DNA of 64,000 bases from Sphaeroforma arctica JP610 (lineage: Eukaryota), in the NCBI RefSeq assembly GCF_001186125.1, contig NW_014040248.1, positions 12,045 through 76,044 of the forward strand, given 5' to 3'. Positions 5,440 through 32,438 of this stretch are shown here, one piece after another. The notes under the pieces were generated by a model. That model had not been told where the DNA came from. It ran no database searches and saw nothing but the letters and a program-made list of their open reading frames with translations. The position numbers and the translations under genes were made by a program. Numbering within the stretch: position 1 is the first letter of the stretch; each line of letters starts with the position of its first letter.

Positions 5440-5499
5440 AAATTACATTGTTCAAATTTACTTCTATATCGTACTTTCTTTCATTACAGTGGCTGAGCC

Positions 5500-5850: not shown

Positions 5851-6012
5851 ATTCGGTGGACAATCATCCGACAGGTAGAATTTGGGTGGGGATGATAACT
5901 TTCTTTGCGACCATATTGAGTGTGGTCGTGGAATTAGACATAAGTTTGTATGATTGATGGAGTCGTAGGAAACGGTTCAGGAGAATAATCAGTAGCTGGC
6001 GCTACGGGAGGC

Positions 6013-7061
6013 TGTAAAATCCGGGCCTCCACATTAGAATCTTGTATTATAAACGTACTCTTAATAGTACGCAAAACGTACTCTTAAAAGTAAGTAAACT
6101 CTTTAATGGTTTTTAACGGTTTTTATTAATTAAATATCTTTTCCATTTTACATATCAGATATTTGGACAAGACCATTAAAAGATCCCAGTAAAATACCAA
6201 ATATAAGATTTGGTCTAGTTCTATTAATAGAATTATACTTAACCTTCCAAATCTATTTATATCTGAATACTTCGGTAGCGAGATGGCTCAACCGAACATA
6301 GGTTTCTAAGGACTATTAGCGTTGCTTAGTTTATCCTCCGTTCAGCCAACCAGATGTGCCAGTCTGATGAAGGCTAAGTCGGTAATTCTTGAGAAGTGGC
6401 AAGTTATTGGTTAATGCAATAACTATGGACGTCAAGAGTATTTTTCTTTATTCTTTTCTTTTTTTCTAAAGATAGGATTTTATGAGTCTCTCGGATTCGC
6501 CCCAACGAAACATACCAAAGTTTCTATTAGAGCGACAACGAAACACTAAATAAAACCCCTTCGGCGAAAACAGTACTGAGAGGATTACATATAGGCAATG
6601 TCTCAGCCTCGATTATTAGCGTTGCTTAGTTTATCCTCCGTTCAGCCAACCAGATGTGCCAATCTGAGGAAGGCTAAGTCGGTAATTCTTGATAAGTGGC
6701 AAGTTATTTGCAATAACTATGGACATCAAGAGTATTTTTCTTTATTCTTTTCTTTTTTTCTAAAGATAGGATTTTATGAGTCTCTCGGATTCGCCCCAGC
6801 GAAACATACCAAAGTTTTTATTAGAGCGACAACGAAACACTAAATAAAATCCTTCGGCGAAAACAGTACTGAGAGGATTACATATAGGCAATGTCTCAGC
6901 CTCACAATCCCTTAGAGTATTGCTGTTTTCACGAAACATACCTAACTTTACTAAAAAAACTCATTTCGTTTATTTACATTGAATTTAATTATACTTCGAC
7001 TTAACCTAAACGTTTAACTACTCTAAGGCGTTAATATTGCCTTGATAGACCAAAACTTACA
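6013..7061. mobile_element. Solo LTR (family A, copy 2) with internal tandem duplication of its 3' ~300 bp
   Basis: Starts TGTAA, ends TTACA, flanked by 4-bp TSD AGGC (6009-6012 and 7062-7065). About 6311-6610 is repeated at ~6611-6903. Confidence 0.9.
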
Positions 7062-8798
7062 AGGCAGGACAGGTGTCGTTGTACGCACATGTGGTGGTGA
7101 CGGACAAGTTGCGGCTGCCGTCTAGTTTGGGTACTGGTGTGATGGGTGTGACCCGCGCGGCTGATGCCGTGAGAGCAAGTTTTGTTACTTCAGTATCAAT
7201 CAACTTATGCCCCCATTGAGTGCTTGGTATGGTAAGAAAAATTGTGCCATTGGAAAAGTCATGTGACGTTGTGTGCCCCTTGATGTATATGTCGTAGCCA
7301 CTGTCATGAAATTTATATTGAGTGATTAATTGTTGTTTGACTGTTGGCCTTATATACGTAATACCAAGTTGTGGTAGTCGTCCGCGTTCTGTGACCATGC
7401 ATTCGCTGATGTCGACGAGCAGAAGTGGAAAGCGCCAGCCTCCATGTTGAAATGAATATAGGACGACTAAGGATATAGTAGTGGTAGCCTGGGTAGAATG
7501 ATCGGGGTTGCCTGTTGGTATAAGCATTAATACCCTCGATAGCTTAAAAAAGTACCTCTAGCATCACTATCAGTTATTTTCTCTAAAAGCACTAAGGGTT
7601 TATAGCCCACATAGCCTCATTGTAGATAAGCAGTTGTATGTGAGCCCTGCTAATACTTCAATAGCTATAAAGAAAGGTCCTCATGAAGGAACGTTATAAA
7701 AGAAAACGACATTGAATTTTGGAGATTGGCGGGAGGACCAAAATCATCAGGACAAGCAATATAACTAGTTACAGAACCGTGATTTGGGAAGTAAACATGT
7801 CTGATTGGAAAGATATGACTAAATCTGAGTTCTTGTTTTGAGATAAGACTGAATATGGGTTGTTGCTTGTTGTAAAGGAGTATATTGTGTTGAGACGAAT
7901 TTTACCCTAAAACCGAGGGACCCATAATATATTACCGCTAATAATTTGGCCGAATAATTGTCAGAATATTTTAGGGGCAAATGGTAGTTATTATATTCTA
8001 TAGATAGTTTACACTATTGTAATACATTAATTTTACGCAGGAAAGGTAAGCAAAATTAGAAATGTGTACATTGTAGTAAGAAAAGGATATATTACAAAAT
8101 ATGGACGCAATTCATCATATTATTTTATTGTAGAAATTCGTATATACAGAGAGTGAAAACGTAAAATAAAAGTTGTATGGCCAGAGGGCATACGCAGACA
8201 ATCCATGCCTGAACACCATGGCAACTTTTAATAGATAACCATTAAATGTCATGGTTGCTGCGGAGGACGTAGATTTCTTTGCAAATTTCAATGTGATGGT
8301 TGGCTTGATTTCTTTTCATGGTTTTGTTCCCAAATGACGTGGACTTACATGAATCGATCTGGGCAAAGTCTTCGTCGGACGCAGCAACTTCAGGGGGATC
8401 GGGAGCATAAGTGTCAGTTCGGGGGACGGAACGACATCACAGTGGAGAGTTAATGGCCACAGATCGTTAAGGGAGAGGACTAGATGGAGAACAGGTCTCG
8501 AGTCCGATTGAAACTCGGGACGCGGCGCAGGACACGGCATAGCAGGGGAGGAAGCACAGGTAGACTTTTATTTGTCCACAGACGCAGTAAAGGCGTCGGT
8601 GAGGTTAGTGAGGATGTCGTTGATCTTGATACCAGGAGCGATGCGCTCGCGCTTTACATAGCTGGCAGAAGAATCAAGAAAGGCAGAAGGGCTTCTTTGG
8701 GAGCAGGGGAGGAACCTGTATTTGGACTGGTCCGACAGCTTCGAATTAGGATCTATTTCAGACTTGGGGAATGGTGAATTTGCGTTCACCAAGACATA

Positions 8799-9147
8799 TG
8801 TAGAGTATGGAGAGTAGCTGAAAGATATGACCCAAAAGATACAATAGACCTCTTTTCAAATACAGTTATCTCAGCAAGGAAAAATCCCTAGTCTGAGACA
8901 TCCGAACTGAGTCTTATTTGCGTCTTCTAATTCACTAGACTCGGGGTTTTACTTTTCTAATTCACTAGACTACGGTTTCTACTTGAATGCTTCTCTCACA
9001 CGCGGGGTCCCGGTATATCTCTACCGCTAATAACACATATGACTAATATTAGGAATATTTGAATCCTCATTCCAACACTCAGTATTTGATGATTCTGTGG
9101 TTTTGGGTTTTGTATTGGCTTTTTGATAATCTGGTCCCTAGACTACA
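8799..9147 (+). mobile_element. Solo LTR (family B)
   Basis: TGTAG...CTACA termini, near-TSD CATA/CACA. A full-length inverted homolog at 15170..15488 confirms both ends. Strand is given only relative to that homolog. Confidence 0.75.
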
Positions 9148-12499: not shown

Positions 12500-15100
12500 A
12501 CTTAATGACACAGACAAGACCCAAATTGAAGTCTTGCTAAAGCAAAGTCTAATTGAGACAAACTACGATGTAGCCCCTGTTAACCTTGCGCACTTTGCGG
12601 TCGATAAATATAATTGTGATGTATCGGTTGGTAAAACAAGAGTGACATTGTACCGGTCTCCGATTAATAAATTGATACCGCAACACATGTTTCCCTATCC
12701 TAAAATAAGTGAGATACTACGTAAGATGGAAGGCCAAGAGATATTTAAAAGCTGCACTTCATCAATTACAAATCCACGAGCCACATAGAAAGTACTAAGT
12801 AAGAAGCATCAATTTAAAGATGTACATGAAGGATTACGTATATTAACTTCATTCTTCCAACAAGTAATTGCAGACCTGTCGGAAAACGGATCTGTCTATT
12901 AAGACGCTATGTAAACTTTACTATGACAGCTCAAGAATACTTTAAACTCGTTAAAGAAGTTTTAAATTAATGAGAATAAATGCTCATTTGCTAAAGATAC
13001 TATCCACTTACTTGGTTACAAAGTATCTGTAGCAGGAGTAGATATTGATTATGGCAAGAAGCAATTTCTATTGGACTTATCTACACCGATAGCGGGAAGA
13101 GTGTATATAAACTCTGTGTGGGGTTGCTAGCTTCTTTTCGGATTCGGCACACTACCTTTCCTACTACCTACTACCTTTCACTTATTTACGACTTCACAAA
13201 GGGCTGTTGGGAAAGCTACGGAAATGTGATAAGTATTCAAATTAAGCAAAAGTAAAGAAATGAATGCACCGATCATGCAATACTCGGTAGACGGTGTTTC
13301 ATTCCGAGTAGCCACTGACGCTTCAGATCGAGCGATTGGATGCGTACCATATCAAGCTATAAATGTAAGCCACACTACATTCAATTTTTTAGTAAAAGTT
13401 ACAACAAGGGTCAACGGAATTACTCTACAGTTGAACGAGAACTTCTTGCTATTGTAGCTGCGCTAAGTCAATTCAAAGAGTACCTATACGGAAACTATTT
13501 TACTGCCACCTGTGATCAAAGTCTTTAAGATACTTAAAAGATATGAACTCTGATTCGCAATTGGTGAGCCGCTGGCATGATATAGTTGCTAAGTTTGCCT
13601 TCAAATTACACACATTCCAGGAATAAATAACCCTCTTCCTGACATGCTCTCTCGACTTGTCCCGGACTTTTAGACAAATGTGTTCCCGTTTGACCTGTCT
13701 AAACATAATGCGTGAGCAAACTCGCCATGGTAACTAATATTCCAGTTGTTAAATTATGCTAATGTATAGCTTCATCTACCATACCGTTGTGTTGTCCCTT
13801 ACGTAAATCCGATCGCTGGCAACGTGAACTTATTAGTATGATACAAAACAAACCTGTATAGGTTGACCGTGAAACCAAACAAGTGCTCGTATCCAGGATC
13901 TCATTTTGATAAAAAGACACCACAGAGACAAGCCATGACTTGTCGCATTGGTCTTACAGGTACTACTAAATGAAAACCCTCAACCGATTTCTTATCTAAA
14001 CTAGAAGAATCTAAACAGTTTGATCTTAAACTCCAGACTCGCAGAATACCGTCGAGATTACGCCGATTGAAACTGCATTAGATCGTAAAAACGTGGAACT
14101 AGCTAAGGCCATGGAATTTAGACTCTAATCACTAAGTAATCCTAAAGCTCGCACTCAACTGCCTAATGCGCTGCTTAAAGAACAGCCAGGAGTTGCGAAA
14201 CAACCAGTGTAATTTGTTATCTATTAATCGCAGGAAACTACTACTACTGACATTGAAGTTGCCCTAAGTATCGGGGAGATGGTTCATTCCCAGTGTTTCT
14301 CAAAATCTGACATTCTTAGAATAGCTTGAAAGTAAAGTCAGGCTCATTCATAATTTAAATTATCAAGCTTACGAGCATAGTTACAAAACGGATATTTGTG
14401 AAGGCTTGATCGTCTGGCGCTGAAAGCAACCACACGTGTGCGGTATATCGACGCTGCACAGATTATGAAAAGTATCAGGTCAAGCGCTTCGATTGGGCAC
14501 CTCTAAAAAGTGTGCCAAAAGACGATCCAATGCGCCGAGTATAAATCAATTTGGTCAAACTTCCGCGATTCATGCATGCGGGCGATGTATATATCTGTCA
14601 TTTCTTGTGTGTGGCTTCGGGTTACAATTTGTTTTGTGATAACGAACAAACGTCCGCAAACAATTGCAGAATTATGCTATCCCGTCTTTAATGACTTCGG
14701 CTTTCCTCGAGTACTATATTTTGATTATGGTAGTGAGTTCTCTACCGATGTAATGAAGGCACTCATAATTGTATCTGGTATGACCCAAAGGCATGTAGTC
14801 CATATAGACCTCAACCGCAGGGCGCGTACGAGACACGTCATACAGAACTCAGAAACTCTTGTAACCCGTACTAGAGAACGTTGAGGATATCCGATATATG
14901 GCATTACCATTTGAAATAGTTTCAAACTGAAATGAATAGATGCATCCTCAAACTGGAACACTTACGTTTCACAATTAATTTTTTTGGCCGCCATAGTAAA
15001 TTGTAAATGCAACATTCGATACTAAAACAAAAGATCGAGCATATGCAAAACGTTTGTTACCCCTTTTACTCGAGCAAACAAAACTCTCGTCTTGCTTTTC
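12500..15100 (+). mobile_element. Highly decayed Ty3/Gypsy pol (RT, RNase H, integrase)
   Basis: PINKLIPQHMFPYPKISEIL (RT start); FRVATDASDRAIG and FFSKSYNKGQRNYSTVERELLAIVAALSQFKEYLYG (RNase H); FNDFGFPRVLYFDYGSEF (integrase core). Order RT-RH-INT. Confidence 0.9.
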
Positions 15101-15169
15101 AAAACTAGAGATTATGTTAACATCATCAACAGAAACATCAACGCTACATATCATCTCTCTAAGACAATC

Positions 15170-15488
15170 CTAGTATCTAGGGACCAGATTATAAAAAAAG
15201 CCAATCCAAAACCAAAGGATTATCAAATACTGAGTTCTGGGGTCTGGATCCAATATTCCTGATAATAGAGTCATCAGTAATATATGGGGATTACCGGCAG
15301 ATGATAACGGGACCCCCGTGCGAGAATAAAACACCCAAGTATAACTTAAGTCTAGTTCAGGATCACAAATCACAAATAAAGACTCAATGTCCTTCAGCCT
15401 AGGGCTTTTACCTAGCTGGGAGATCCGCACTTGAGAAGTGGTCTATTGTTTCCATTGGTCGTGTCCTGAGCTACTCTCAAACTCTACA
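15170..15488 (-). mobile_element. LTR family B copy, inverted relative to 8799..9147
   Basis: Reverse-complement alignment along the whole length (tctagggaccagattat...caaatactgagt...agctactctcaaactctaca). No TSD seen. Confidence 0.75.
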
Positions 15489-17629
15489 TTTTTAACAATA
15501 TTTTTACTGCGTGAAGTCAAACAATCTAAGCGGGCTAGAACATAGCACTGAGCTTTATTAATATATCAGAGAAAGATAGTAAGAACGAGGAAGGCAGAAG
15601 AATGTGGAGATCCCTGGAGCCCGGAAAGTTGAGAGAAAAGAAGAACTGGTGTGGTGTTAACTAACTTGCACACTGGAACTGGAAAAGAAAGAAGAAGCTC
15701 CCTCCTTGAGAACAGACACCAGGAGCCGACCAACAAGGTAGTGGAATGAACTAAGCGGAAATTTAACACGACGGGGTAACCCTCACAGGATGGCCCATGT
15801 AAATAAGCACCAAACGTGATTAAATTATAGTAGTTGGGAGAATTCAAATCCTAGTAGCAAAGTGAAGATCAGTGTCAGTGTTGATTTAATTGATTGATGT
15901 TAAGAGAATTCAATCCCCATGAGAGACATCAATGTATGGACAATATATAATCAACAGTACATGTAGAACATTTCATGTCTAAAATATATGAGGTACACAA
16001 TAACACATACACAAACATGTGCTACTAAATTAGGTAGACACATGAACCTTGCCACAAATAAATTGTTGAGGTACAGGGCTGTTCTTCTAAACTCCATAGA
16101 AGAAAGCCATCAATAGTTATCCTTTTGGGGCAATTATACACGACGAGAATAAGGACATAAACGACAACACAATGTATAAACGAGCCTTCTATATATAATA
16201 TTTTAGAGATAAGAATAATGAAGGAAGAGTCTTTTGGGTGCCTACACATGTCTCAGAAACATCCATGGAATCTGATTGATGGCTATACATGGATGATAAT
16301 AATAAGTATATATGATGCAGAAGTTAGAAATAAGTAACACTGTAGAGGATGTCTAAACTGATACAGAATAGATACAGGACGTACATTTAAAATACTGAGT
16401 AACATCTACCAAGCACAGGCACAAAGCGTGAGATGCATATATTCTGGAATACAAAATAACACAATTATCTAGAAATATAAATATCCTGGCGCACAAGATA
16501 CCAACATCAATTGGACATAGTTCACGTAATCAGATAAGCAGCCATCTAGAGATAGCTTGAACATTCAGAAAAGCCTTAGTATACATATATGCTTTTGATC
16601 GAATTAGATGCGAGTATGTGAATCAAGAAGGCAGGAACAGAAACATCTATAAGAGCCCAGAACATCTCAATTACAGGGATGACGTAGAAGTGCACAGAGC
16701 AACTCTATTGCAATGATATAATATACATAGTAATACTCACACACCTATAGATCAGAAACAAGATAAGGGAACATATGTTACAAAAATATACATGACAGGT
16801 AACAAAAATACACATATTGATACACAATATACAAGATACAGATTTCGTTTAAAAGCATGTATAAACCCTGCAATGAATAACACATTGCACATATCAACAA
16901 CAGTGATTACACACACACTCACATCTAGAATTCATAGATGTAGATTTTTCATGAACGAATCAAATGACCAAACCACTAGGCACGAATAGATAGACATACA
17001 CAAGCACCATATCAAGCAGTTAGGTATAGAATACTATCAGGAACAATATACCTACTTAGATGACACAATAAATGTATCGACACATCGCATTTCGATACAT
17101 GACACACACAAAAAAATGCATCCAACAGTAACAAATAAACATATATACTCACATAGGCCTAAAATACATAGAGAGACACATTAATGTGGACACGTCACTT
17201 AAAAGGAATATATTAAATCTAAACACAATAAATACAGGATGAGGCACGCGTGAGAAAAAAAACCCAACCGACATCCCGCAATGCACGGACGAAACGGTAA
17301 ATGTGTATATCAATCACATACATACCCATGCACAAACCTATAAGTTCACACATATGTGACATATAATAAATAGATATATTTTATTGATTGATCTATCGCA
17401 AATTACAATAGAGAACGCTAACTACCAATCTATAAGGACGACTATATACAGCGGCTATAAGAGAACGAGATACAAAACTCGGAGTCGAGATTCTTGGCAA
17501 CAAGAAACTAGATTAGAGAGTGCACAAATAACCACATTACTGACCTTCTGAAAAACAAGAAGTTCGGAACAAGACGTATAGTAATATTCACAATACAATA
17601 AACCAAAACAAGAATTGTGTTCCTTGTGA

Positions 17630-19960
17630 ATTATGATAACTTCCTTTATTTTTAGTAGCACAAATTTGTCTTGCTCGAATTGGTAATTAATTGGTCTAAG
17701 CATATTCTTACTTTCTTGAGGAGACTTGTTTGGGCATGTTCACCTGTGGATAAGAATGCTAAATACACCGGTGTTGGTGTTGTGCTTTTGTACATTGACC
17801 ATCTGTAAGCCACCTGTTCACATTTGGATCCGTTTGTGGAATGTACTTACGTGGTACGAGGTTTTCTTTGGCATGCCTCATTTATCCGACATTGATTTCA
17901 TTTGTAGGCACAGTGGCTTTGGTGCCTGACAGGTTGCAATGTACGTCAGGATGTATATCTGCATTGGTTTCTAAGATGTCTACAAGTGAATCTCTGAACC
18001 CTTCTTGTTCGTGCTTTGGATCTTCCTCGTGTGAAATGAGTAATTACTCCCATTTTGCGTATGTTGGAAAAAGGGATTTATAAATCCTGCTATGTATACA
18101 CCTATGTATGGAAGAATGTTCATACCTTTCAAACAAGAAGTGTTGATGCCTTCTTAACTGGTAGATCCAACACTTTCGAAATAGTGAGAGGTTTTTCTTC
18201 CTCTGTAATTAATGTCGCATACTTCGGTCGATCCTGCACTTTGTATTCTCGCACCTGTTTGTGCTAATCGTATGTAGCCTGATTGCGCTCTGACTGATAG
18301 ATATAGTTCAGCTACTATACTTTTGTCCATACATGAGCGTTGTGCGCCTGAGTCTTCGAGTGCCCGGTATGTATTGCCATTAATTTGTATGTCAATGGAT
18401 AAAGGTTGGTAATTTATAATTTGTATCATTCGCATTTATTAAAGTTTCTTCATTTGTATTTACATTTGATCTGTCAGCCAGAGCAATCACGTTTGCTTCC
18501 ACCTACGAGTTGTTTTAGTGCTCGGCACCTTCTGTGATTTCTTCCACCTTGCCAGATGTAATGGACAGTCTTGCTATCTGCACATCCTTCTTGGCCCGCT
18601 CCTCAGCCTGCTTGGCTTCATTCACTTTTTTGTTGTTGTTGGGACATTTACTGTACCGATGTGGGGCTGGCATTACCAGGCAATAAGGACATGGACGCTC
18701 TTCGCGTGCCTCCTTCTTCTCCTGTGCCTGTCCCACTGGCTTATTTTGGTTGGGTGCACCATTGTCTGGTTTATACCGTTTGTTAGCATTGGTAGTGCTA
18801 TTTTCTGCTTGGACGGCTGTTTGTGCGTTATGCTTGTTTTGCGCTCACAACTGATCCTTCAACATACGCTCTCCTTGCAACACTGCCGCCATTCTTATGT
18901 GTGACTCAGTCATTGTATGAAACTTGGTGTGTTCCATAACTGACAAGTACCCTTCACTCCCAAAAGGTCGCTTATCTCCTTTGATTAGAATATCCACCAG
19001 TGTTTGCTGTCCGTAGTACTTAAGTGCTTGGTACCTTTGTACCTTGAGGAGTTGAAAGTGTATGCGTGTCTTGTCTGAGTTGCGGTAACGCTTCTCTAAC
19101 ATCGCCTTTGCCTTACGCGCACGCTCTATGCGCACTTCGACGTTCAGTTTCTTATTTTGCATGTCATTGAGAAACTTCTTCAACAGACAGTCTACTGGAT
19201 ATGGCATAAGTCTGTCAATAATGATCCTATTGAATTGCACAGGTTCCTTGAAGTGCTTAGTTTCATGCGTCTCAGAATCTCTTAAGTTTTTGAGTACTGA
19301 TTTGGTCTTCTCCGTTGCATCAGTGGAATCTATTAGGTTTCTCACTAGTGCTGGGTACTGACACAGTGGCATGGACTTTGCTAAGAATAGGTTGCTACAT
19401 TGTATAGTAAACTTTATGATATCTTCACAGTTTTCCATTCTAAAGTAACTATCTTTTGGCATCTTAGGAAATTCTGAAGTCTTTAGTAGTTTTGCAAGAG
19501 GTGGTTTATTTATCTGGTCGCCTAACTGTGAACGGATGAGCTCTAACTCGCTAATGTACTGACTTATTTGAATGAGATCATCTTCCTTATCGTCACCACA
19601 GTCGTTGATTGCCAGATCATATCGTCGTCTGAGTTCTGCATCCACTAGTGGTATGCGTCGCTCTGGCTGTTGGTCATGTATGCCTACCCTCATCTTGTGT
19701 AGAGTTGGTATAGGCACCGGCACTGTTTGTTCCAACTTGGACACAAACCGACTCACCAGAACATAATTGCCTTGACAGATACTCTTGTCTATTTCTAGAC
19801 GCATTGATGATACTATGGGTACCCCAGCCGGTGTAGGCTGGCCAGAACCACTGCCTGGGCTTGCCCCCCCCCCCCCCCCACCTGGGTTGGCTCCCACGTC
19901 ATCCGCGCCTTCACCTCCTTCCCCACCACCATACACGCCTGCTCTGGTTGATGTTAGCAT
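17630..19960 (-). mobile_element. 3'-truncated Ty3/Gypsy-like element: gag, aspartic protease, start of RT
   Basis: 371-aa ORF 18845..19960 continues in frame past one TGA into CPYCLVMPAPHRYSKC (zinc knuckle, ORF ends 18515). Protease ALEDSGAQRSCM in 18154..18435. RT N-terminal RPINYQFEQDKFVLLKIKEV at ~17640-17700, after which similarity stops. Confidence 0.85.
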
Positions 19961-20301
19961 TTTTAGATGTCTGCGTTGGTGTGTGGGTGTTATGGGTTAT
20001 CAATAAAGACTCTTGTTATATTTTGTGCGAAAGCGCGCGCTTCACCCCCCTTTTCTTTAGTAATAATTCATATAAAGTAAGTAAATTGGGATATATTTTA
20101 CTTACTAATGCAGTGTTGTTGCTTTGCTTCACTTCCGCGGGAAGTGTTTACCGTTCTGTCTAGTACGGTAGCTTGTTGCTTTATTCCCTGTATTTAAGAG
20201 GGGTGAAAACCGTGTTTGTTAGTCAAACTTATTTCGTCACGTGTTGACTTACTTGTGCTTATTCCGTCATATGAGAAATTAATTTCTCATGTGATCTCAA
20301 T

Positions 20302-20470
20302 GAGATGTTCGGTCCTAGTGACGTCACCTGGAGAAGTTCGGCCCTAGTGACGTCACTCTGGGATGTTCGGTCCTGTACCGAACTGTGTCGATGTTGACGT
20401 CACCAGTTGATGTTCGGGTCTGTGCCGAGATATGTTTATGTGTGTTTGCACTTGATGTTCGGTCCTTTGC
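20302..20470. promoter_or_regulatory. Short repeat cluster (GATGTTCGGTCC core) with three TGACGTCA palindromes upstream of the minus-strand gag
   Basis: About five GATGTTCGG(T)CC-like copies. TGACGTCA at ~20318, ~20348 and ~20395; GTCACGTG at ~20236. Lies 340-500 bp upstream of the gag ATG at 19960. Confidence 0.4.
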
Positions 20471-23400
20471 ACTATGATAGTGTGTCAGTGACCATTAATT
20501 TTGTTTATATTTGTACCACCGTATTTGTACCAAACTTTGGATTGGTTGCGTACGCGTTGTGTGTTAGTGTCTTCATGTTTTTAACCCTCTACTGTGTTCG
20601 CACTGTTTGTTTGAGCGAGCTCCTGTGTGTGCTGCGGATGTTCTGTATCCTTAGTGCTATGTCTCGCTGTTCCAATTAGTATGTGCTTAGTATCTCTTGA
20701 TAGCTTATCATGTACTTCTTATTGAATCAGTGATGATACTGATCGCATATGTTGTCTCATTTTGTTAATGTTCGACTATTCTTGCCGGAGTGGCTAGCCT
20801 TAAAAGGGTTTTAAAACCCTAAAGTGAATGCTGATCGCTTTTTATGTCGAATTCTTGAGCTTATCGACTATTTTTGCCGGAGTGGCTAGTCTTAGCGTTT
20901 ATAATAACTTAATCTTGTTGATAGTCATCTCATTGAATCTTACTTGTGAATTTAAGGTCTTATTCTTGTGTGTCCACTTGTAATGGCTGTGCTTTATGTA
21001 ATATTTGGCTATTCATTGCTTTATTTTAGCATTAACAACCAGTTGTGGTTCGTATATGCTTTGAGTTTCTATGCCTTAATTTTCAGATTACTTGTGATTT
21101 CTTGTTGATCAATCGTGGTCTCGTGTTGGTCACGTAGTTTGTGTTTATGCGTGAGTACTCGTGTATGTTCTTTAGTCTTTCTAGATATCTGTGGCTTGTG
21201 ACCTTGATATAACTCCAGAGTTCATGGGCTGCCTTCTTGTTGCTATTGATTTCACATTGACTTGTTATCTCGTGTGCTTCTTGAAGCAATTCGTGTTTTT
21301 AAAGCAATTCGTGTCTTTATGTGTCTAGGGTTACGTGTTTATTATTACTTCTCAGTGTAGTTGTTTGAGTCGTGTATAATTGTTCTAATGCTTGTGTAAT
21401 TATGTCGTTGTACATGCACTTCTATGGTGGTCTGTGTGCGATCAATCTCTGAGCTATTTCAGCTTTGAAATGGTTGATCTCTATGCAATTTCCACTCTGG
21501 AATGTTTATTGTATACTTCTTGTTAGTGTGTGTGTTTCTTTGTTGCCGTATACTGTTGTTTTGCAGTTGTTTTGGGTACTGTTCGTCCCTTGCCAGTAAA
21601 TGCTGATGTGTTGTACTGCTATTGCACTTCACGTGTTCATGTATTATTGCATGCGTGATCTGATCGATCTCCGCTAATTTCCTTCGTGTTGTGACTGTTT
21701 TATATTACGTGTGTTGTTTTTATCTCACAAATATTGTATAGGCTTCTTGTTCTTGCTTCTTACTTGCCCTTCTGCCTTATTAGCAATAGGTACCACTTGA
21801 TCCTCTATGATTCTATGTGAACCTAATCTTGCGATTCTATCATCATACTTGGCCACCCTCCTAGATTTTCACTGCTCTTGTTGTTAAGCCTACGAGTGAC
21901 TCTCTTACTGTGTGTCAAGTTGCGCTATATTCAAGTGCCAATGCAGTTTCTCTATTCTGAGATGTCTCTATTGTTTCTAGGTGATTGCTTATGTTGCGGC
22001 AGGTGATATGTTGTAGTTCGGGGCCCTCTCTCTAAATCCTAGCATTGAGTGACACTTTTATATATAGATTTTTGATGTCCCCAACATTGCTAATAAATCA
22101 CTCGTGACTGGTTGGTGTTATTTTCATTCACTCGTAGAACACTCTTTCCCTCTTGACTCACTTCCAGTTGGGTTATTTACATAAGTTCTTCTCTGTCTGT
22201 TTCTTGTTATCCGGTTTGAATTCTGCTCACCGGTTCTTCTGTGTTTGAGGTCTCGGCTGAGTTCTCTTAATCGCTTGTAATTCTTTCTTCTCCTCTTCGC
22301 CTTTCGTTGGTGTTTGAATCCTAGTTTATATAAATAAAGATTTCTATCTCTTTATCTTGTTGATTCAAATGTTCCATTCCTAATTCCAAACTCAGTATTT
22401 GATTACTCTGGGTTTTGGCCAGCAGTCCGGGATCCGCTGTTGTATGTTTACAACCAGGATGCGGTGTTGCTAGCAGCTCGGCTCCAAGAGCTTCATGACT
22501 TTATGCGAACGTTTATAATAACAGCGTATACTGGTTTGTTGGGAGAGTTATTGTTGGATGATCTGGATAAAAATGGGTTATCGTCGGCAGCAGCAACATC
22601 AACAACGATGTTAACTGCTGTTATATACAACCGGGAGGGGGGGTTCGGGGAGGAAGGAACTTCGAAGTACAGGGAGCAAACTCATTTAAAGGAGAAAACT
22701 CCGCTTACACAAGGGGGAACCCTCACCAACCTGTGATGGGTTCGGCTGGATATCAGTACAGTCATAATGACCGTTATACTACACCCCCACGTGGTGACTC
22801 ACGTGGGTTTGACGGATCCAAAGAACGTTCTTACACCCCTAATAGGGCATATAGGCCGGTGGATGAGAAGACACCGTCCCCGGCACCGCCAGCGTGTGGT
22901 AAGTGCTCGTTGAGGCATCGGAGTGCATCTTGTCCGGTATGTGGCCTTTGTAACAAACTGGGCATTGGCGAACAGACTGCCCATCGAAGGTAACTACGGT
23001 TGCGGTGGCGCAGACTAAGTCTAAATGACTAGTCAGTAACGGTTGGAGTGGTCCAGTGACCCATGTATTCTGCGAGGATTAAGCGCTAAGTATTTATAAT
23101 GATACTGGGGCTAGACCAGCCATGTTGTCCACAGAGTTTGCGATGCACCATCGGTTTGAAGTGACGGATATTGACCCTATCTTTATTACGGGATATGGGG
23201 GTGATGGTCGTATGTCTTTGACTCAACAAGTAGAATTACCCTGCTGTTGGAAGTTTAGGATTCACACGGGGAGGCTACATATCATGAAGCAGAGGAAATT
23301 ACGTTTCTTCTGGCGCCATGGATACCTCATGATTGTACTATTTTGGTTGGTCTGGATGTCATGGAACACGAGAGGTTGGGAGCGACTTGGGGTACATCTA

Positions 23401-25249
23401 CGGACCCAGCTACATTTCGGTTGCAGCTTTCACGGGTTTCCAATGATAATTTCCTACAGTACCGACCTCCTGAGGTGATTTATAAGCTTGAATCTTTGAA
23501 GCGTAATAAGCATGTACCGGATATACATGATGAGTTAGATGAATATGACTTTACTGACTTAAAATATCATGCTCGTATATGTAATTTTACTGTGGCACAA
23601 TTACCAGATCTTAAGGATAAGTATAATCGTAATCGCATTAATAAGAAAGCTCCTAAGTTTATTATGGAAGTCGAATGTGAGATTATGTTAAAGCCAGATG
23701 CCATGCCCCAGCGGCGGGTATATGAGACAAAGGATCCGGTCAAGGTGGGTGTGGAGACGCGTAAATGTGATGACCTTCAAAGTGTGGGACTCGTCGAGCC
23801 GGGCAACAAGTATAGCAAGTGTTGCTTCTTGCATCTTCGGGTGGTTCCACAGGATGACAAAGGATATCGATTGTGTATCGACTGGAGTCCTCAGAACTTG
23901 GAGTTCCATGTGCTGCCTGTGACACTCCCATTGGAAGCGGACTTACTTAACCATGCACGTAGAGCGGTGATACAAACGGTTGTGGATTTAGGTACGGCTT
24001 ACCATCAAATACGTTTGTCTGAGGATTCTCGGGGAGTTATTGACTTTCTACTCAGCGGACGGGCGATACTGGCAACTGTTATGTTTGATGGAAGGTGTTC
24101 TGGGTGTTATGATAAGCAACACTCACCCAGTCGTTGTTTCAATCAGAACGGACGTTGATGCTTTACATTGATGATATGATTATTGCACAGCATCGGCTAG
24201 CACATAAATCGTATATAGATACATTGCGTAATCATTGGCGGGAACAGCATCGGAGACCAAACATTTGTGAGGCAAATGATGTACAGTTGCAGCCCCATAA
24301 GAGTCAAATATCGGTTGGCCGGGATATTTTGGATCATGGGAGTATGATAGATATTGAACGATTGCAGGCGCTTCTTACGGCACCAGCGCCAGTGAGTAAA
24401 CCAAAGGTGGCATCGTTGTTGGCAATGCTTGCGTGGTGGTTAGGTATGATACCCAATTACTCCATAATCATGGAACCAGTGATTCGTTTAACCAGGAAGA
24501 ATGAGGTGTTCAAATGGGATACGGCTTTATGTGCCTACTCAAGATCAAGAATTTGTTGAATATAACCTTGGAGTAACTACAGAAACCAGATGTCATCAAT
24601 GGAGTCGAGAATACGAGGCTGCAATTGTCCACGGGGGCTACAGTTCTAGAAGTTTCGGATTTGGAAACGGGCACTCCAGCAATCCGGTACCAGACGATGG
24701 ATTCTGGCGATTTCTCGCGAATTGAGGAAGTGGTTGAAATCCGACGACGAGCTGAGTCACTGGGGTACGTGGTCATCAAAGAGTTAGTGCTGGATAAGGG
24801 TATTACAGTACATGACCATGATTGCTTGTTCCCAGTGATGTTGATGTCTAGTACATTTAGTGCGGCTCAGAAAAATTATAGCACCACAGGCCGTGAATTT
24901 ATGGGGTGTGTATATGCCACGAAAAAGGTATTGCATATATTACAGCGTTCGAAGGTGCCGTGTGTATTGTATACAAATTACATGTATTGTGCGTAACCCT
25001 TCTCGATATACACAGGAGGATACTATACAGACTCGGCGATGGCTCAGAGCATGCAATGTGCTGCAGGAAGTTGAGTATGATTTCATATATGTACCAGGGA
25101 AGGTCAACTATTTCTGAGATTATATGTCCCATTGTGCCGACAAGATGGATGAGTTGATGACCCCACTTGATCGACGAGCTCAGTGGAAGGACCCGGTAGA
25201 ACAGGCAAGCGATACTGTATTTTGTGGAGCTGTGTTACAATTTGATCTT

Positions 25250-25670
25250 TCGGATTGGCAACTGAACACGCGCTTGGTATACCACTCGCAAGCTATCTTT
25301 TGGGTTGTGTTACAGGTGGAAATGTTTGCGTCGGAAGCTAACCATGTGCTTGCTAACTATCCTAGCATTGAACCTGGTGGCGGTGCGATGAGATGTGATA
25401 CGCTTGCATTTGAAGGGCATTGTTAGTTATACCAATCCGTCATGGAAGTTGACTGCTAAATTTGTTAATCATGTAGCAATGACTGATGGTGCACAGGGTG
25501 CCTTTGTGTCCTCTTTTGGCCGAATGAGCCTTGGATGAGGGATTTGGTTCCGATGTTGCAGGCTTGGCCGTCTGTGATTCCTCATGCAGAGGATGCCTTT
25601 TTGTTAAATGGCCAGTATGCAGTTGAGGTTCCCCCGTGGGATTATACGTTGTTGGTATATATTAAAGGGG
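25250..25670 (+). pseudogene. Dam/DIRS-type amino-DNA-methyltransferase-like domain within Gypsy pol (two frameshifts)
   Basis: SDWQLNTRLVYHSQAIFWVVLQVEMFASEANHVLANYPSIEPGGGAMRCDTLAF / GIVSYTNPSWKLTAKFVNHVAMTDGAQGAFV / WPNEPWMRDLVPMLQAWPSVIPHAEDAFLLNGQYAVEVPPWDYTLLVY. YTNPSW is at 25428-25445. Confidence 0.8.
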
Positions 25671-26452
25671 GCCATCAGGATTGTCGCTTTGTTTACAATT
25701 CCTCCTATTTATTTTTTTTGGCCGGAGGTAGGACGTGCTGGCCCACCTGCTAACATGTGCATGGTTGATTATCGGCCAGTGGTTTTGTGTTTTGCGCCTA
25801 TATCCGTGTCAGTAAGTCGTCAGTTGGATGAGGAAGCGGCAGCACATAATACACTCATGCAGGAGACGACCGAACGTTTGGAGGCCCATGAACATGTAAC
25901 TGATAAAAAAGTGGCGACTAGCCGTAGATGGAAATGACCATCGGCTAAACGTAGCCCTAGCCCGGTGGATCGTACGTGGCGATAGATATCGCAGAAGCGC
26001 AACCCCAGCCCTTCTGTGAGTAAGGAGGATGCTCGGGACCTGCCCCTTTCGGAGGTACTGGGCATGTTGGTTCCTCTGGAGTTCCTTCCGTCGGGAGTTG
26101 AGGGTATGGTATATAACGAGGAAGATAAGGTGTTGTCTGTTCATAGTGATGTGTGTTGTTTGATATACCAGTTCCTTGTGATTGTCCTCATGACGCGGTT
26201 GTTGTTAGCGGGAGGATCCCTTGTTTGAATGGAGATGTTAGTGATGTGGTGGACGACGATTCTGCACCCAATGCATCACCTAAAGACCTTAATTTAGATG
26301 ATATGCTCGTAGAGTCTCGGTTGTCAACCGGCATGATTAACGACAACATAGATGATGATGATGTGTGTGGACAAAGCTACAAACACGGACGCGTTGTTTA
26401 TTACGTGGTTGTGAAGACTTAAATCCCAGCCACAGTGAATTTCAGGAAGTTC

Positions 26453-26633
26453 TGTAGTAAAAGTCCCCTTAAAACACTATCAGTGTGGAGTTAAAAATTA
26501 GTTTACAATTAATTCACACGAGGTGAATTATTTGTAGACCACGTAGACAATCAAATATAAGAATAAATACACCGCACTGAGCCTCAGGGAGACTCAGTAG
26601 ATTTTAGTATCGTATTTTGATGTGTTTACTACA
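26453..26633. mobile_element. 181-bp nested solo LTR or MITE inside the Gypsy pol linker
   Basis: 9-bp inverted termini TGTAGTAAA / TTTACTACA, near-TSD GTTC/GCTC, internal AATAAA, more AT-rich than its flanks. Confidence 0.65.
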
Positions 26634-28493
26634 GCTCCCTTAGGCACAGGGGATTTGGTATACAGGGCTGGCTTAGAGGTGGAGGCTCAAGTGGATTCAG
26701 CAGATGTCTTTCAGAATAATCAGCAGTATTTGCCGGTGGAGCCTTAATCTGTTCGGTACTCCATTAGCCACTGCCCGTCGACGGACAACCCGTTGTCATC
26801 CAGGAAGCCACGTATGCGACGATCGGAGGAGATACCGGATGAACATATACCAGTATGTCAGGATGGGGAGGACATTTATTGCAGACTCCCGTTTACAACT
26901 TTGATCGGTAGGTAGATTAGTATCCCCGCAGATACTTTTTCAGGTGATCTGGAAATACCACATGGGGTTTAGTCATGTGTTGGTAGCGGACCATTTGAGA
27001 GTTCTTATACGGAAAAAGTACAGTTGGCATGTTCTTCGTACTTTGTTGGATTTGATTATTGGTAATTGTGAGTGGTACATTCGTTTTAGTATGGGTTATG
27101 GTCGAAAGCGTGGTCTTCTCCGACAACCGGATCGTGCAACACGCCTTGGGAAGCTGATGGACCTTGATGATTTGGTACCCACGGGGAATGCTGATGGGTA
27201 TAAGTATGTGTTGGCTGCCCAGGATGGTTATTCCCTGCGGGCATTTACCACGTGTTTAAAAAGTGGTGATCATGTAGCTGACACGTTGATCAAGATTTGT
27301 GACGAGCAGCTGCGACCACATGTGGCGGTCAATGACTATGTGATGAATAAAGATAATGTTTTTTTATTGTGAGAAGTTCTCTGCGTATGCCAAACAGACG
27401 GGAGCCACCATTCATTATGTGTCTACTAATGAGCATGCAGGTAATGGATGTGTGGAAGTGTTTCTAAGCACGGCTAAATATTGGTTACCTCGATCATTGT
27501 GTGTTGATATGCATCACGCATGGCGACATGAGGCCCCCTATTTCACTACAAATTATAATGCTACTTATTCGTCGGTTATTCAGATGGAACTGCATACCCT
27601 TGATGCTGGCCGATTTTATACCGTTTATATACTCATATTGTGGATCATCAAATTGAATTTATGCTTGATGAATACCTTGTTTTTGATACCTCTACAGTTT
27701 GCATGGGTGACCCCTTTGGAACGCACGGCGTCGGAGAACATTCAGATGGCGCGAGCGGCTCAGAAATGACATGCTGATCTCATTCGGGTGGATTGCTCAA
27801 TGATTGGGGTAGGCCGACAGGTTTTGTATCGGCTGATAAAAACCCCTGACCATAAACTGTCCAAGAATTGGGTGGTACCTGCTATTGTGATAGCGCTATT
27901 ACCCCTGGTGATTCAATATATCAAGGATGTGGGGTTGAACAAGGAGTATAGGGTTTACATCAAGAACCTCAAATCATATCGACCTCCGGTCGGTTTGGTT
28001 GAGAAGTTGCCTCAGGGAAATGTGTCGACGTCGGTGTTTGGTTATTACATGTTCTTTGATTCGAATACGCAGTCTATGGAACGGTAGATGTTGGTTGAAG
28101 CATTCTGGGAATACCCGGTAGCTATTCGTTTTTAGGATAGCATGAATAGTAACTATCGTTGATGGGTGCGTCTTAACACAGGCAAATATAAGCATAAGTG
28201 TACACATCAATGGTGGAAAGAGGATGAAGATTTTCTCCCACAGCGCCCTGCGGAAGTTACAAATATTCAAGGAATGCGCACTGCACTTAATCGACTTTAT
28301 CGTTATGTTAGAGACCCTTTATTAAGACAGGATTCGTTCGAAGCATGGCGTTCAAAGTATGAGGCCGAACGGTTGACTCAGCACTCGGTGGATGCAGAAC
28401 ATTGGGATTTGTATGCTATTATGGACAGGGAGGATTGAGCTCAATTCCATAGGTTTTAGTCCTGCGTTTCGATATCGCATAATCTGGCGGGGC

Positions 28494-28909
28494 TGTAGTA
28501 TGGAATAGGCTGATGACCCCTGCCCTCCCTCTGTTAGGACAGAACCGATGGACAGGACAGTAGGACCGAATAGTGATGACTACGGAGACCCTTGAGGAAT
28601 AGTAATATAGATTTAGGGTTTTTAGGGTTTAGGGTTTTTAGAAGACTAGGACATTACTGGATTTGTCAGATAGACTACTAGTAGTGGCCAACTGACCATG
28701 CGGACTATGGATGAGACCTTCTCTGGCCCTAAGGATAGGAATAAGGACTGGATGGTGGAACTTAGAGTCTGTCTCTTCTACTCACTACTCACTCACTGCC
28801 TTTGAGGACCTGAGTCCTGACTCTCCTGAGACCGTCGTTATTTTAGCAACAGGTAATATATGGGTAGTATTTATTATCCTCTCTAGCTCACTATCCTATA
28901 CATACTACA
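28494..28909 (+). mobile_element. 3' LTR (416 bp) of the MTase-bearing Gypsy element
   Basis: 9-bp inverted termini TGTAGTATG / CATACTACA, preceded by a PPT-like tract, 55 bp after the last pol-frame stop. No flanking TSD pair, as expected for a non-solo LTR. Confidence 0.8.
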
Positions 28910-31547
28910 GCAACTTCATTTTTTTTTAAATAAGTATATAGTGGGCGCTATGAAATTCAAAATAGCAAAACAGGGAGTGAGAGGAGCCGGGAGGGCCAGG
29001 GGGGGAAGGGGAGTAAATATTTAGGGACAGTTCTTGTTACTTTTTGATTGTTTTTGTTTAAAAAAAACAACAATTTGACTTAAAAAGCGGCAGATCGGCA
29101 ATTCGGCAGTCGAGATTCGAGAACTCTCGGGATATTTATAATACTTCCTGCCCCCCCCCCCCCCCCCCACACTAGTCGGCCAGCCACCAAAAGGCCCCAG
29201 CCCGCAGGGCCAAGGGCCCAGGGCCCAGGGCCTAGGCCGCCTGAGTTTACTTCAGAATTTTCTTCTTCGCTACATCGTCGGCGGTATTAACGCCGGGCGG
29301 TTGTCGCGCTTGCCGCCAAGCGTCCGCCCAGCGTCCGCCCACCAGTCAGCAGTCGCCCACGCACCGCAGTCCGCAGGGCGCATAGCCGCATAGCCGCAGG
29401 CCCACGCCCACGGCCCTATAACAGGGACCCACAGTCCCACACTGCACAGTCCCGTGTGTATTTACTCCGAATGGTTTTAACGCTGTCATAAATTTTTAAA
29501 TAAGTTCAATTAGGATTTAGGAGCCTATAATACAGTCAACAAAATTTAAAAAACAAACAAACAAAATGTATTGGGCTTTAAAAAAAATAGAAAGTATTGG
29601 TTATTTTTATAGCCCTCTGAAATAATACATCATTTTGACGCTCGCGGCTCGAATATGCATTTTTTTAAATGCAATACTCAATAGAGCTATATATGTACAG
29701 TATAAAAAGGTTAGAGGAAACGCTTTAAAAAAAAAAAATTTATTTACTCAATTAAAAGTTGCTTTTTATTTAGAAATTATAAAAAACAAAACAATACAGG
29801 AATCGGCTGAGGGGCCCTGACGCCCCAGAGCCCCGAGGGCTTGAGTCTTAAGGTTAGCCGTTATTTATAAAATAGCGGACCCCGCCAACAGGACAGGGCA
29901 CAGTCTCTCGCAGGGCACTGTGAGACTGTGAGTCTGTGACTGTGTCAGGGACTCAGGGCACTGAAGCCTGAAGGCACTGAGGGCAGTGCTGAGGGAGGCC
30001 GGGCACATCTCAACTTTAAAATACATATGCCCCCAGGGGCACCAGTAGCCCACAGACCCACAGCGGTACAGGCTCAAACATTCACAATCACATCATGTGA
30101 CTCATCATCTCCTGCTCTACATGTCCAGAGCTTATATCACCAAATCAAATCATATACACAGTTATGTAGTATTTGTTTTAAAAAAAAATCTGAAATTTTT
30201 TATATCTTGAATAATATTTAGTATTTTAATTTTTTTATACAAAATACACACAGCAAACAGAGTCAAAACTGAAAACTGAGTCACAGACTGTCCCGAAGTC
30301 AGCACTCAGCAATCAGCATTCAGCAAACTCAGCATAGTCCACCGCTACTGCGTGAGAGGACGATTCCGGGACACAGTCTGACAATTCACACTTCGGCGAC
30401 AAATAAAAATCAACACTAGGTACATATGTATTAAAATACTACATATTTGATATTTCACACCTCCACAGCAGAGAGCCAGAGACTCACAAGTCACAAGTTG
30501 CAAGCAGATCTGGTCGCATGTCAAAATTCATAACGCAAAGAGAGTGAGAGAGAATAGAGAGAGAAGTCACGATTCACGAGTCACCACTCATGACTCACAG
30601 TCACCATTCACCAGTCACAAGTAGTCACAACTCACAATTCAACTCAGTTACAATTCAAGACTGACAAGTCACAATATTTACACAAAAGAAGAGAGAGAGA
30701 GAAATCGCGATTCACGACTCACGACTCACGACTCATAAGTCACAAGAATTCACAACTTACACAAGTCACAAACTCAACATAGTCACAATTTCAGAGACAC
30801 AGTTTGATACACACACACACACACACTATCACAGTCACACTCTGGCAATCTGGCTTATAGGCTGACTATATTTATTATTCCCACACTGAACAGTCAGTCA
30901 GTTACAGTGTTAGTGTTACACACAAGTTCACAACAAGAGAAGGTAGTTTTACAGCAAGCAGGGAATAGTCTCGGAGGTTCAGAGGTACACATAGTGAATA
31001 CATATTGTGTTTTGTTTTGTCACTTTAAAAAAAAAATGAGTAAGTACTACATATTTTAGGAATCTAAGGATAATATTCGCAGATTCTGAGATTCGTTATA
31101 TGAGCAGGCTGACGGCCTGAAGGCACGATTTGAGTCCCTTGACACGAGTCAATGAGGCATAAGTCTCGACTTGCGAGTCACACGACTCACAAGTCACAAG
31201 TTACAAATACTCACAATACGCTCGAATCACTATTGTATCTCAGTAATTTTTATAAAATGAGTACAATCAGTACGTACCATACAACGGACTGGGACAGTGG
31301 GACTCTGAGTCTCTGGGTGGGGTACACGAGCAGCGACTGTGAGACTGTGAGACAGTGAGAGTGAGAGTACTGTCTACTAGTGCGCGTTGACGACTTAACG
31401 TTTCTTGAAACTGCTTGTTGTGTCAACTGTACTCGAATCACGAGTCGACGTCTCGACGACCATTCTTCTAAAATATTTACTATCCTCTCCTAGTAGTAGT
31501 AGAGAGTATGTAAATAGCCCCTACTCTAGTCTACTACTAGGCCCTCT

Positions 31548-32438
31548 CCTAACTTCATTACGTTCCCCGTTAATACGCAAAAAAGCGTTTACGTTCAAAG
31601 TTTATCCTAAATATAGTCAATAGTTTTTGAGGCGGCCTAACTGTCACGAATAGTCCTATTTTTCACTTTGTGTCAGTTATGAATAGTTTCAAATCGCTTT
31701 TTCATTAAAAAAGGTCAATTTCTCAGGTGCAAATTTGGAAAATTTTCATGGTCGATTTGCCCCCGATATACTTTAAACCGCTTAAAAAACCAAACTTTTT
31801 GCGTTTGCGCTTAAAGTTTATCGCATATAGGCAAAACGTATTGAGCTTAGGGACCACTCTCTACTAGAGAGAGAGAGAGAGTAAATATGTACATAGAGTC
31901 CTAACCTCAAACCGGTTCCCGTTAAAACTTTTACAAATCGAATAAAAATACGTTTACGTTCAGCTTTTATTCCTAATGCGGTCCTTTGAACCCATAGGTG
32001 CAGCTTGTGGGTCTACATTTAAGTGCGTATAATGTTTACGATACGAACTAGTCCTATATAAGAACTTAGGTAGGCCCTTCTGATCACATTATAACCGATA
32101 TAACATTTAAAAGTGAATATATATGCGTTTACGTTACACTTCTATCCCGTACCCACATAATGTTATGAGCTTAGCCCTGAGCTCATTGCATTACTTGGGT
32201 ACAAAATAGAAGTTGAACGTAAATACATACTTATTCAATTTTTCAACGTTATAACGGTTATAATATGATCAGAATTTGTAGGACTGGGTCATATAGTCAA
32301 AATGGTACTCACTTAAATGTTTAGACGCTCAAGGTGCACCTGTGAGCATACAAAGGACCGTATATGGAATAAAAGTTGAGCGTAAACGTATATCTATTAG
32401 AAATATAAGGTTTTAACGGAATACGGTTTGAGGTTAGG
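31548..32438. mobile_element. Three MITE-like ~270-300 bp units (31548..31851, 31900..32175, inverted 32176..32438)
   Basis: Each has CCTAA(C/G)CTCA...TGAG(C/G)TTAGG-type terminal inverted repeats and two internal CGTTTACGTT-like motifs. Units 2 and 3 abut and form a ~540-bp imperfect palindrome. Confidence 0.7.

What the first reader, a model, noticed from the sequence alone, without database searches (positions are those of the whole stretch)
25250..25670. Gypsy LTR retrotransposon with a Dam/DIRS-type DNA amino-methyltransferase domain between RNase H and integrase
Seen: right after RNase H, three frameshifted pieces join into DWQL...VEMFASEANH...Y.S...D...YTNPSW...GAFV..WPNEPW..L..M...P..IP...PPW. 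Established: this W.L / DLFAS..N / (Y/F)xNPP(W/F) / V.P.W...W layout is the phage-Dam-like MT domain that follows RNase H in DIRS retroelements, and NPP(Y/W/F) is the catalytic motif of N6A/N4C methyltransferases. Seen: this element has a DTG protease, a DDE integrase, a PPT and a TG..CA LTR, so it is Gypsy, not DIRS. Inference: a Gypsy lineage that packages its own methyltransferase in Pol, possibly marking its cDNA or insertion site with 6mA/4mC. This copy is dead (NPS instead of NPP, frameshifts). I cannot confirm whether this architecture is already described.
Basis: partly seen in the sequence, partly recalled or inferred. Interest (0 to 1): 0.88.

Follow-up and report, generated by a model that had tools for sequence, protein, structure and literature searches.

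The report
Dead gypsy element with Dam-like methylase
This is a broken copy of a gypsy-type jumping gene, in the animal relative Sphaeroforma arctica, that carries the remains of an adenine-methyltransferase domain between its RNase H and its likely integrase; the design is real but a 2026 preprint already described it in this same species, so this copy is ordinary.

Summary
Three collinear pieces at 25250-25680 (the middle one in the +1 frame) match a profile built from 15 non-host Dam/DIRS-type methyltransferase domains at positions 5-58, 60-87 and 85-133 (39, 7 and 32 bits; best shuffle 9). The RT and RNase H are gypsy-type. The integrase is only weakly supported (z 5.8). A TG..CA 3' LTR is likely, but there is no 5' LTR, and the protease and PPT rest on motifs alone. 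A gene model from this locus names the host as Sphaeroforma arctica. Two paralogous host proteins carry the same domain, one behind a gypsy RNase H, and two more remnants lie in this window, so it is a family trait and not a one-off DIRS fragment. The architecture is published as 'DAM-LTR' (bioRxiv 10.64898/2026.05.21.726589), with a lineage in S. arctica. This scan has found the kind before: 23 findings in at least 3 other genomes. The copy is dead: frameshifts, stops, NPSW for NPPW. The substrate is open: the closest solved fold to an intact homologue is the RNA cap methylase PCIF1, and the published E. coli DNA assay was negative.

The parts
22571..22993 (+). 3' remnant of gag with two Cys/His knuckle-like motifs; the 5' part of the element and the 5' LTR are missing
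   Evidence: Sequence; motif recalled, no Pfam hit. 22378-22418 matches 9064-9106, a piece of another element family.
23083..23420 (+). Putative aspartic protease, DTG at 23101, frameshifted
   Evidence: Motif and position only; z 0.3 against the intact element P0024; no Pfam hit.
23790..24556 (+). Gypsy-type reverse transcriptase, YIDD at 24164, one frameshift
   Evidence: z 12 against P0024 and 1.1-6.0 against 4 DIRS-like proteins; Pfam RVT_1 only E 0.21.
24577..25140 (+). Gypsy-type RNase H with a long internal insert, frameshifted, one stop
   Evidence: Pfam RT_RNaseH 28.4 bits, cut-off 24.8; z 19.5 against host paralogue P0009, 10.0 against P0024, 0.0-3.5 against 4 DIRS-like proteins.
25250..25417 (+). 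Methyltransferase piece 1: DWQL and VEMFAS (cofactor-binding motif; role recalled)
   Evidence: 39.3 bits, profile positions 5-58.
25419..25496 (+). Methyltransferase piece 2 (+1 frame): catalytic-motif position, reads YTNPSW
   Evidence: 6.6 bits, profile 60-87; z 5.3 against P0014, 3.5 against P0005, 3.1 against P0018, 1.9 against P0004.
25499..25678 (+). Methyltransferase piece 3: WPNEPW ... DAFL ... PPW
   Evidence: 31.8 bits, profile 85-133; tblastn E 4e-12 with P0005 and 1e-7 with P0024.
25698..25790 (+). Family-specific segment behind the domain, after a third frameshift
   Evidence: z 4.0 against P0005, 2.5 against P0009.
26453..26633 (.). 181-bp insertion of a highly repeated TG..CA element with 10-bp inverted ends
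   Evidence: Summed contig depth about 1000-fold that of the flanks, loose ends at both borders; ends.
26905..27658 (+). Likely DDE integrase: zinc-finger-like start, D 27160, D near 27334, E 27455; one frameshift
   Evidence: z 5.8 against P0024, 0 of 500 shuffles as high; C-terminal half alone not significant; no Pfam or PDB hit.
28494..28909 (+). Likely 3' LTR, 416 bp, TG..CA with a perfect 9-bp inverted repeat, preceded by a short G-rich run
   Evidence: no 5' partner in the window; no other copy at 80% identity in 3 runs apart from an internal TTTAGGG run.

Best explanation
This is a decayed, 5'-truncated gypsy retrotransposon of Sphaeroforma arctica whose pol carries a Dam/DIRS-type methyltransferase domain between RNase H and a likely integrase, and in active relatives that domain likely adds N6-methyladenine to the element's own newly made DNA. 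Shown here: the domain, its place, the gypsy RT and RNase H, sister copies, and that this copy is broken. Inferred: the domain was made as part of Pol and packaged with RT and integrase. Taken from the preprint and untested: it marks the RNA-DNA intermediate or cDNA, the host enzyme AMT1 keeps the mark after integration, and new copies are then transcribed more easily. I put the identity at about 0.9 and the DNA-6mA mechanism at about 0.55-0.6 given the identity.
For: Collinear three-piece match (88.9 bits read through with X at the breaks). 8 of the 15 non-host hits match Pfam Dam at E<=0.05, 2 of them above the cut-off. An intact element with the same order exists: P0024, protease-RT-RNase H-Dam-rve-chromo, with NPPW. 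Host paralogues P0005 and P0009 carry the domain on other scaffolds, P0009 behind a gypsy RNase H. In an 18-row tree the window's domain groups with P0005/P0009 (81/78) and these with P0018 and P0014 (94/95; neither fork starred), apart from the FPP-type DIRS-like rows (99/96). A diverged sister contig aligns at RT, RNase H and integrase with 1602 letters between RNase H and integrase, against 1858 here including the 181-bp insert. The model of homologue P0014 (pLDDT 74) matches N6-adenine methylases: PCIF1 Z 9.9, rmsd 3.2 over 140; T4 Dam Z 7.6, rmsd 3.1 over 107. The preprint reports more 6mA and more expression on DAM-LTRs in S. arctica and Abeoforma.
Against: No direct Pfam or PHROGs Dam hit for the window's pieces. 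0 of 4 readable host copies has NPP: NPSW here, NSPW in P0005 and in the neighbour at 13716, NPI-stop at 5680; P0009's model lacks this segment. I saw no intact S. arctica copy. The sister contig has no piece at 80% identity over the domain, so its 1602 letters are not known to encode it. The preprint's E. coli assay showed no rise in 6mA. Iyer et al. hold the DIRS1 domains to be likely inactive and related to PCIF1. The best structural match is an RNA enzyme, 2.3 Z units above T4 Dam. The integrase is weak and its D-E spacing reads 40 against 35 in P0024.
Confidence: 0.55

Rival explanations
1. Same element, other job: the domain works like its structural relative PCIF1, and either methylates or simply binds the element's RNA (cap-proximal adenosine, or the RNA strand of the hybrid). 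The 6mA seen on inserted copies would then come from host AMT1 acting on transcribed copies.
For: Top fold match is PCIF1/CAPAM in both searches. 5 of 15 non-host hits match Pfam PCIF1_WW weakly. Iyer et al. place the DIRS1 domain in the PCIF1 clade and suggest RNA binding (passages). Negative DNA assay in E. coli. Only 4 of 15 non-host hits keep NPP, and NSPW occurs in two different host copies.
Against: The fold was predicted for a homologue of unknown origin (P0014, 26% identical to the window's domain), from 12 sequences; Foldseek gave no match at E<=0.001, and a shared fold shows no substrate. NPP is reported as conserved across eukaryotic DAMs. The host copies I read are all decayed, so their motifs may be damage.
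Confidence: 0.35
2. A fragment of a DIRS element landed once in this gypsy copy; the domain is not part of the family.
For: The locus is a nest of inserted and truncated elements; the domain is single-copy at 80% identity while RT, RNase H and integrase have a sister.
Against: Piece 1 continues the RNase H reading frame across one stop; P0009 has the same gypsy RNase H-domain order; the neighbouring gypsy has a remnant right behind its RNase H; the domain groups with gypsy-linked rows; no tyrosine recombinase hit at 25700-28500 (plus-strand ORFs, minus-strand frames).
Confidence: 0.07
3. The motifs are a chance arrangement in decayed linker sequence.
For: No direct family hit.
Against: 17 of 20 database hits are independent proteins with this domain, best E 5e-8; 69 bits against at most 6.7 in 30 shuffles.
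Confidence: 0.01

Closest known systems
Ichthyosporean DAM-LTR lineage (Fernandez-Moreno et al., bioRxiv 10.64898/2026.05.21.726589; whole text read, figures and supplements not seen)
   Same: Same host species; Ty3/gypsy RT; Dam-like domain inside an LTR element; no chromodomain detected. The order RT-DAM-integrase is stated in the text for their Chloro-Ochrophyta clade.
   Different: This copy is dead and 5'-truncated, with NPSW and with E for D in the first motif. The text does not give the domain's position for the ichthyosporean lineage (it is in a figure), and I could not check whether this subfamily is in their set.
DIRS1-type retroelements with the MT domain (PMC3783388, passages; PMC4738411, passages)
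   Same: Same domain, same place behind RNase H.
   Different: DIRS lack protease and DDE integrase, use a tyrosine recombinase and have inverted repeats. Here RT and RNase H are gypsy-type, a likely DDE integrase follows, and about 40 residues separate RNase H from the domain.
Intact unnamed element P0024/P0018 (ENA)
   Same: Protease-RT-RNase H-Dam-integrase order; domain 30% identical, neighbouring branch in the tree.
   Different: Open frame of 1492 aa, NPPW intact, weak chromodomain hit; host not named.
PCIF1/CAPAM cap-specific adenosine N6-methyltransferase (PDB 6irx)
   Same: Best structural match to homologue P0014 (Z 9.9, rmsd 3.2, 140 residues).
   Different: A cellular RNA enzyme with a WW domain and a helical insert; 14% identity; a shared substrate is not shown.

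Membership tests
DAM-LTR (Ty3/gypsy with Dam domain) | Dam-like domain (Pfam PF05869 family) | tested here: met
   Indirect: profile of 15 homologues, 8 with a Dam hit, matches all three pieces in order. The window's own pieces miss Pfam Dam.
DAM-LTR (Ty3/gypsy with Dam domain) | Ty3/gypsy-type RT and RNase H | tested here: met
   Pfam RT_RNaseH above cut-off; RT z 12 and RNase H z 10 against P0024, at most 6.0 and 3.5 against 4 DIRS-like proteins. No RT tree was built.
DAM-LTR (Ty3/gypsy with Dam domain) | DDE integrase after RNase H | tested here: inconclusive
   z 5.8 against P0024, 0 of 500 shuffles; no Pfam or PDB hit; C-terminal half not significant. Likely, not proven.
DAM-LTR (Ty3/gypsy with Dam domain) | Paired direct LTRs, PBS, PPT, target-site duplication | tested here: inconclusive
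   One TG..CA candidate at 28494-28909; the 5' end of the element is missing.
DAM-LTR (Ty3/gypsy with Dam domain) | Catalytic NPP motif | tested here: not met
   NPSW in this decayed copy; bears on the activity of the copy, not on descent.
Ichthyosporean DAM-LTR lineage | Host is Sphaeroforma, Abeoforma or Pirum | tested here: met
   P0003, a gene model spliced from this locus, is named S. arctica JP610 SARC_05069.
Ichthyosporean DAM-LTR lineage | Falls in the published DAM clade | not testable with these tools
Ichthyosporean DAM-LTR lineage | No chromodomain | tested here: inconclusive
   No Pfam hit and z -0.3 for the tail 27770-28435, but the tail is decayed.
Ichthyosporean DAM-LTR lineage | 6mA and expression on copies | not testable with these tools
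   Only contigs were on hand.
DIRS1-type elements | Tyrosine recombinase, no DDE integrase | tested here: inconclusive
   No recombinase hit at 25700-28500, but the sequence is decayed; a likely integrase is present.
DIRS1-type elements | DIRS-type RT and RNase H | tested here: not met
   Both score far better against gypsy-type proteins.

The most novel reading that the evidence does not exclude
S. arctica holds several old, diverged gypsy subfamilies in which the domain persisted while changing its active site (E for D in the first motif, NSPW or NPSW for NPPW, and in the neighbouring element loss of the whole N-terminal half). The domain's conserved job would then be PCIF1-like action on the element's RNA, not DNA methylation, and the published 6mA link would be a side effect of transcription.
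Probability: 0.15. Interest if true: 0.6.

Novelty: already known. Interest (0 to 1): 0.17.

Why it matters
As a discovery it matters little: the kind and the host lineage are in a May 2026 preprint, and this copy cannot be assayed. It adds small details: the domain sits between RNase H and integrase in an S. arctica element, decayed copies that escape a Pfam Dam screen are common (three remnants in the first 33 kb of this window), and their catalytic motifs are all altered. The open question is the substrate. A retrotransposon that writes its own permissive DNA mark, or that carries a cap-type RNA methylase, would be a new way for mobile DNA to avoid silencing, but intact copies must answer that.

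Tried and rejected
No whole genome was held, so the genome-wide search for intact copies, dN/dS and an RT tree could not be run. Three word-index protein searches found nothing: the RT piece (525-2000 aa), piece 1 (180-2000 aa) and the three-row host alignment (1069-3050 aa only); these blanks are weak evidence. Pfam and PHROGs on the pieces: no Dam hit. tblastn against phages: only thymidylate synthase at E 3. Viral contigs: no match. ESM Atlas for piece 3: top clusters unnamed (0.91-0.93), a Dam-bearing cluster at 0.81 with 21% of members, a lead only; the Atlas look-up of the integrase did not complete. PDB sequence search of the integrase halves: nothing. A chromodomain in the tail was considered from motif memory and not supported. 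A 5' LTR was sought in 15000-22600: best score 33 against shuffles up to 39. No RNA holder is listed; run X11 is only guessed to be RNA and says nothing on expression. No tRNA gene in the window. One paper search (DIRS1, methyltransferase domain, phage, RNase H, motif) gave 0 papers. Rows dropped before the profile and tree: P0015 and P0019 (unrelated repeat proteins), P0003 (this locus); P0005 and P0009 were left out of the profile but kept in the tree.

Full report
Observation. DWQL (25253), VEMFASEANH (25316) and WPNEPW...PPW (25517-25639) lie in one frame, which also continues the end of RNase H across one stop; YTNPSW (25428) lies in the +1 frame. A further shift near 25680 leads to a short segment shared with host paralogues. 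One contig covers this stretch with no difference in 3 of the 4 runs laid, from three studies, so the breaks are in the genome.

Is it a methyltransferase domain? The pieces hit no Dam family directly. The frame holding pieces 1 and 3, with its four stops read as X, was searched against 1.84 billion proteins: 20 hits at E<=1e-3. One is a spliced gene model of this locus, two are host paralogues, two are unrelated repeat proteins, and 15 carry the W.L / DLFAS / xPP / P.W...W layout. Of the 15, 8 match Pfam Dam at E<=0.05 (2 above the cut-off) and 5 match PCIF1_WW weakly. A profile of the 15 places the three pieces in order at positions 5-58, 60-87 and 85-133 with 39.3, 6.6 and 31.8 bits; 20 shuffles reach at most 9.0. 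The outer scores are biased by selection; the middle piece is independent, weak alone, and fills the gap. Read through with X at the breaks the domain scores 88.9 bits. I folded an intact homologue, P0014, not the broken copy (pLDDT 74). Foldseek gave no match at E<=0.001, with PCIF1 and KsgA on top. The wide search gave PCIF1 Z 9.9 (rmsd 3.2, 140 residues), rRNA methylases at 7.8-8.3, T4 Dam 7.6 and E. coli Dam 7.3. The domain belongs to the N6-adenine methyltransferase fold; the fold does not tell the substrate.

What element is it in? RNase H passes the Pfam RT_RNaseH cut-off. RT and RNase H score z 12 and 10 against the intact gypsy-type protein P0024, and at most 6.0 and 3.5 against four DIRS-like proteins. 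The integrase is weaker: z 5.8, 0 of 500 shuffles, no Pfam or PDB hit, D-E spacing 40 across a frameshift. The protease is a DTG motif in the right place with no statistical support. A 416-bp TG..CA stretch with a 9-bp inverted repeat follows at 28494-28909; it has no 5' partner, and no other copy at 80% identity. The 5' end breaks off near 22420 against a piece of another family. A 181-bp highly repeated element sits between the domain and the integrase. No tyrosine recombinase was detected at 25700-28500.

Host and family. P0003 joins three stretches of this locus and is named S. arctica JP610 SARC_05069. P0005 (SARC_00905) and P0009 (SARC_08162) lie on other scaffolds and carry the domain at 37% and 32% identity; P0009 has a gypsy RNase H in front of it. 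In an 18-row tree the three host rows form one side of a branch (81/78) and join P0018 and P0014 (94/95); these forks are not starred and the window's branch is long, while the FPP-type DIRS-like rows split off at 99/96. A diverged sister contig aligns at RT, RNase H and integrase with 1602 letters between the last two, close to 1858 minus the 181-bp insert; nothing in it reaches 80% over the domain, so its content there is unknown. Two more remnants lie in the window: behind the RNase H of a neighbouring gypsy (11.7 bits in one frame) and on the minus strand near 5.6 kb (17.8 bits), against at most 6.7 in 30 shuffles. The one-off insertion reading is therefore unlikely.

How it most likely works. 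This copy does nothing: every domain is broken. In active relatives the domain would be part of Pol and packaged with RT and integrase (inference from its place, and from P0024's open frame). The preprint proposes that it puts 6mA on the reverse-transcription intermediate, and that host AMT1 keeps the mark; it reports more methylated insertions and more expression for DAM-LTRs in S. arctica and Abeoforma, but no activity in Dam-deficient E. coli. Against this reading: 0 of 4 readable host copies keeps NPP (NPSW, NSPW twice, NPI-stop), though all four are decayed; only 4 of 15 non-host hits keep it; Iyer et al. consider the DIRS1 domains likely inactive relatives of PCIF1 that may bind RNA; and PCIF1 is the best fold match. 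I give DNA 6mA 0.55, RNA or binding-only 0.35, one-off insertion 0.07, chance 0.01.

Comparison and novelty. The first paper search returned the preprint by Fernandez-Moreno et al., whose whole text I read (figures not held, supplements closed). It defines five DAM-LTR lineages, one in Pirum, Abeoforma and S. arctica, and claims the first report of the domain in non-DIRS LTR elements. Whether this subfamily and this domain position are in their set would be in a figure and supplements that I could not see. A second search (15 of 17 listings seen) showed no other title on such elements. From PMC3783388 and PMC4738411 I saw passages only. Earlier notes of this scan list 23 findings of the kind in at least 3 other genomes (8 shown, not checked by me), none for this genome and no look-alike of piece 1. 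The gag knuckle, chromodomain and motif roles named above are recalled unless a call is cited.

Verdict. It is a dead member of an already described kind, in a species where that kind is already reported. Interest 0.17.

Noticed in passing
window 13680-13900 (+), in a decayed gypsy at about 12500-15200: Right behind RNase H lies the C-terminal half of the same domain (ANSPW ... PLRKSDRW...P), without the N-terminal half; 11.7 bits in one frame against at most 6.7 in 30 shuffles, 27 bits read through with X.
   Followed up: partly
window 5480-5860 (-): A third remnant of the domain (DLFTS in one frame, YANPI-stop and the C-terminal part in the next; 17.8 bits). The element it belongs to was not resolved; it lies among tandem duplications at 4337-7062.
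   Followed up: partly
window 26453-26633: A 181-bp TG..CA element with 10-bp inverted ends and about 1000-fold contig depth, a MITE or solo LTR of a small element; no clear target-site duplication. A second TGTAGTA..TACTACA stretch lies at 30165-30443.
   Followed up: partly
window 28612-28641: A short TTTAGGG-type run inside the LTR candidate, matching many high-depth short contigs, probably the telomere repeat.
   Followed up: no
window 23664-25423: A public gene model (P0003) is spliced out of this dead element and is probably spurious.
   Followed up: yes
window 24577-24830: The RNase H has a long internal insert before the NYS motif; host paralogue P0009 has an even longer one at the same place.
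   Followed up: no
window 18154-19996 (-): Another LTR-type element: an open 383-aa gag-like frame and a protease with Pfam hits; no pol was seen behind it.
   Followed up: no
window 500-2700 (-): Fragments that look like a non-LTR reverse transcriptase (motifs recalled).
   Followed up: no
window 31900-32438: A 540-bp imperfect inverted repeat (73%), MITE-like.
   Followed up: no
P0024 (protein of unnamed origin): An intact 1492-aa protease-RT-RNase H-Dam-integrase-chromo protein with NPPW, a ready candidate for an enzyme assay.
   Followed up: partly
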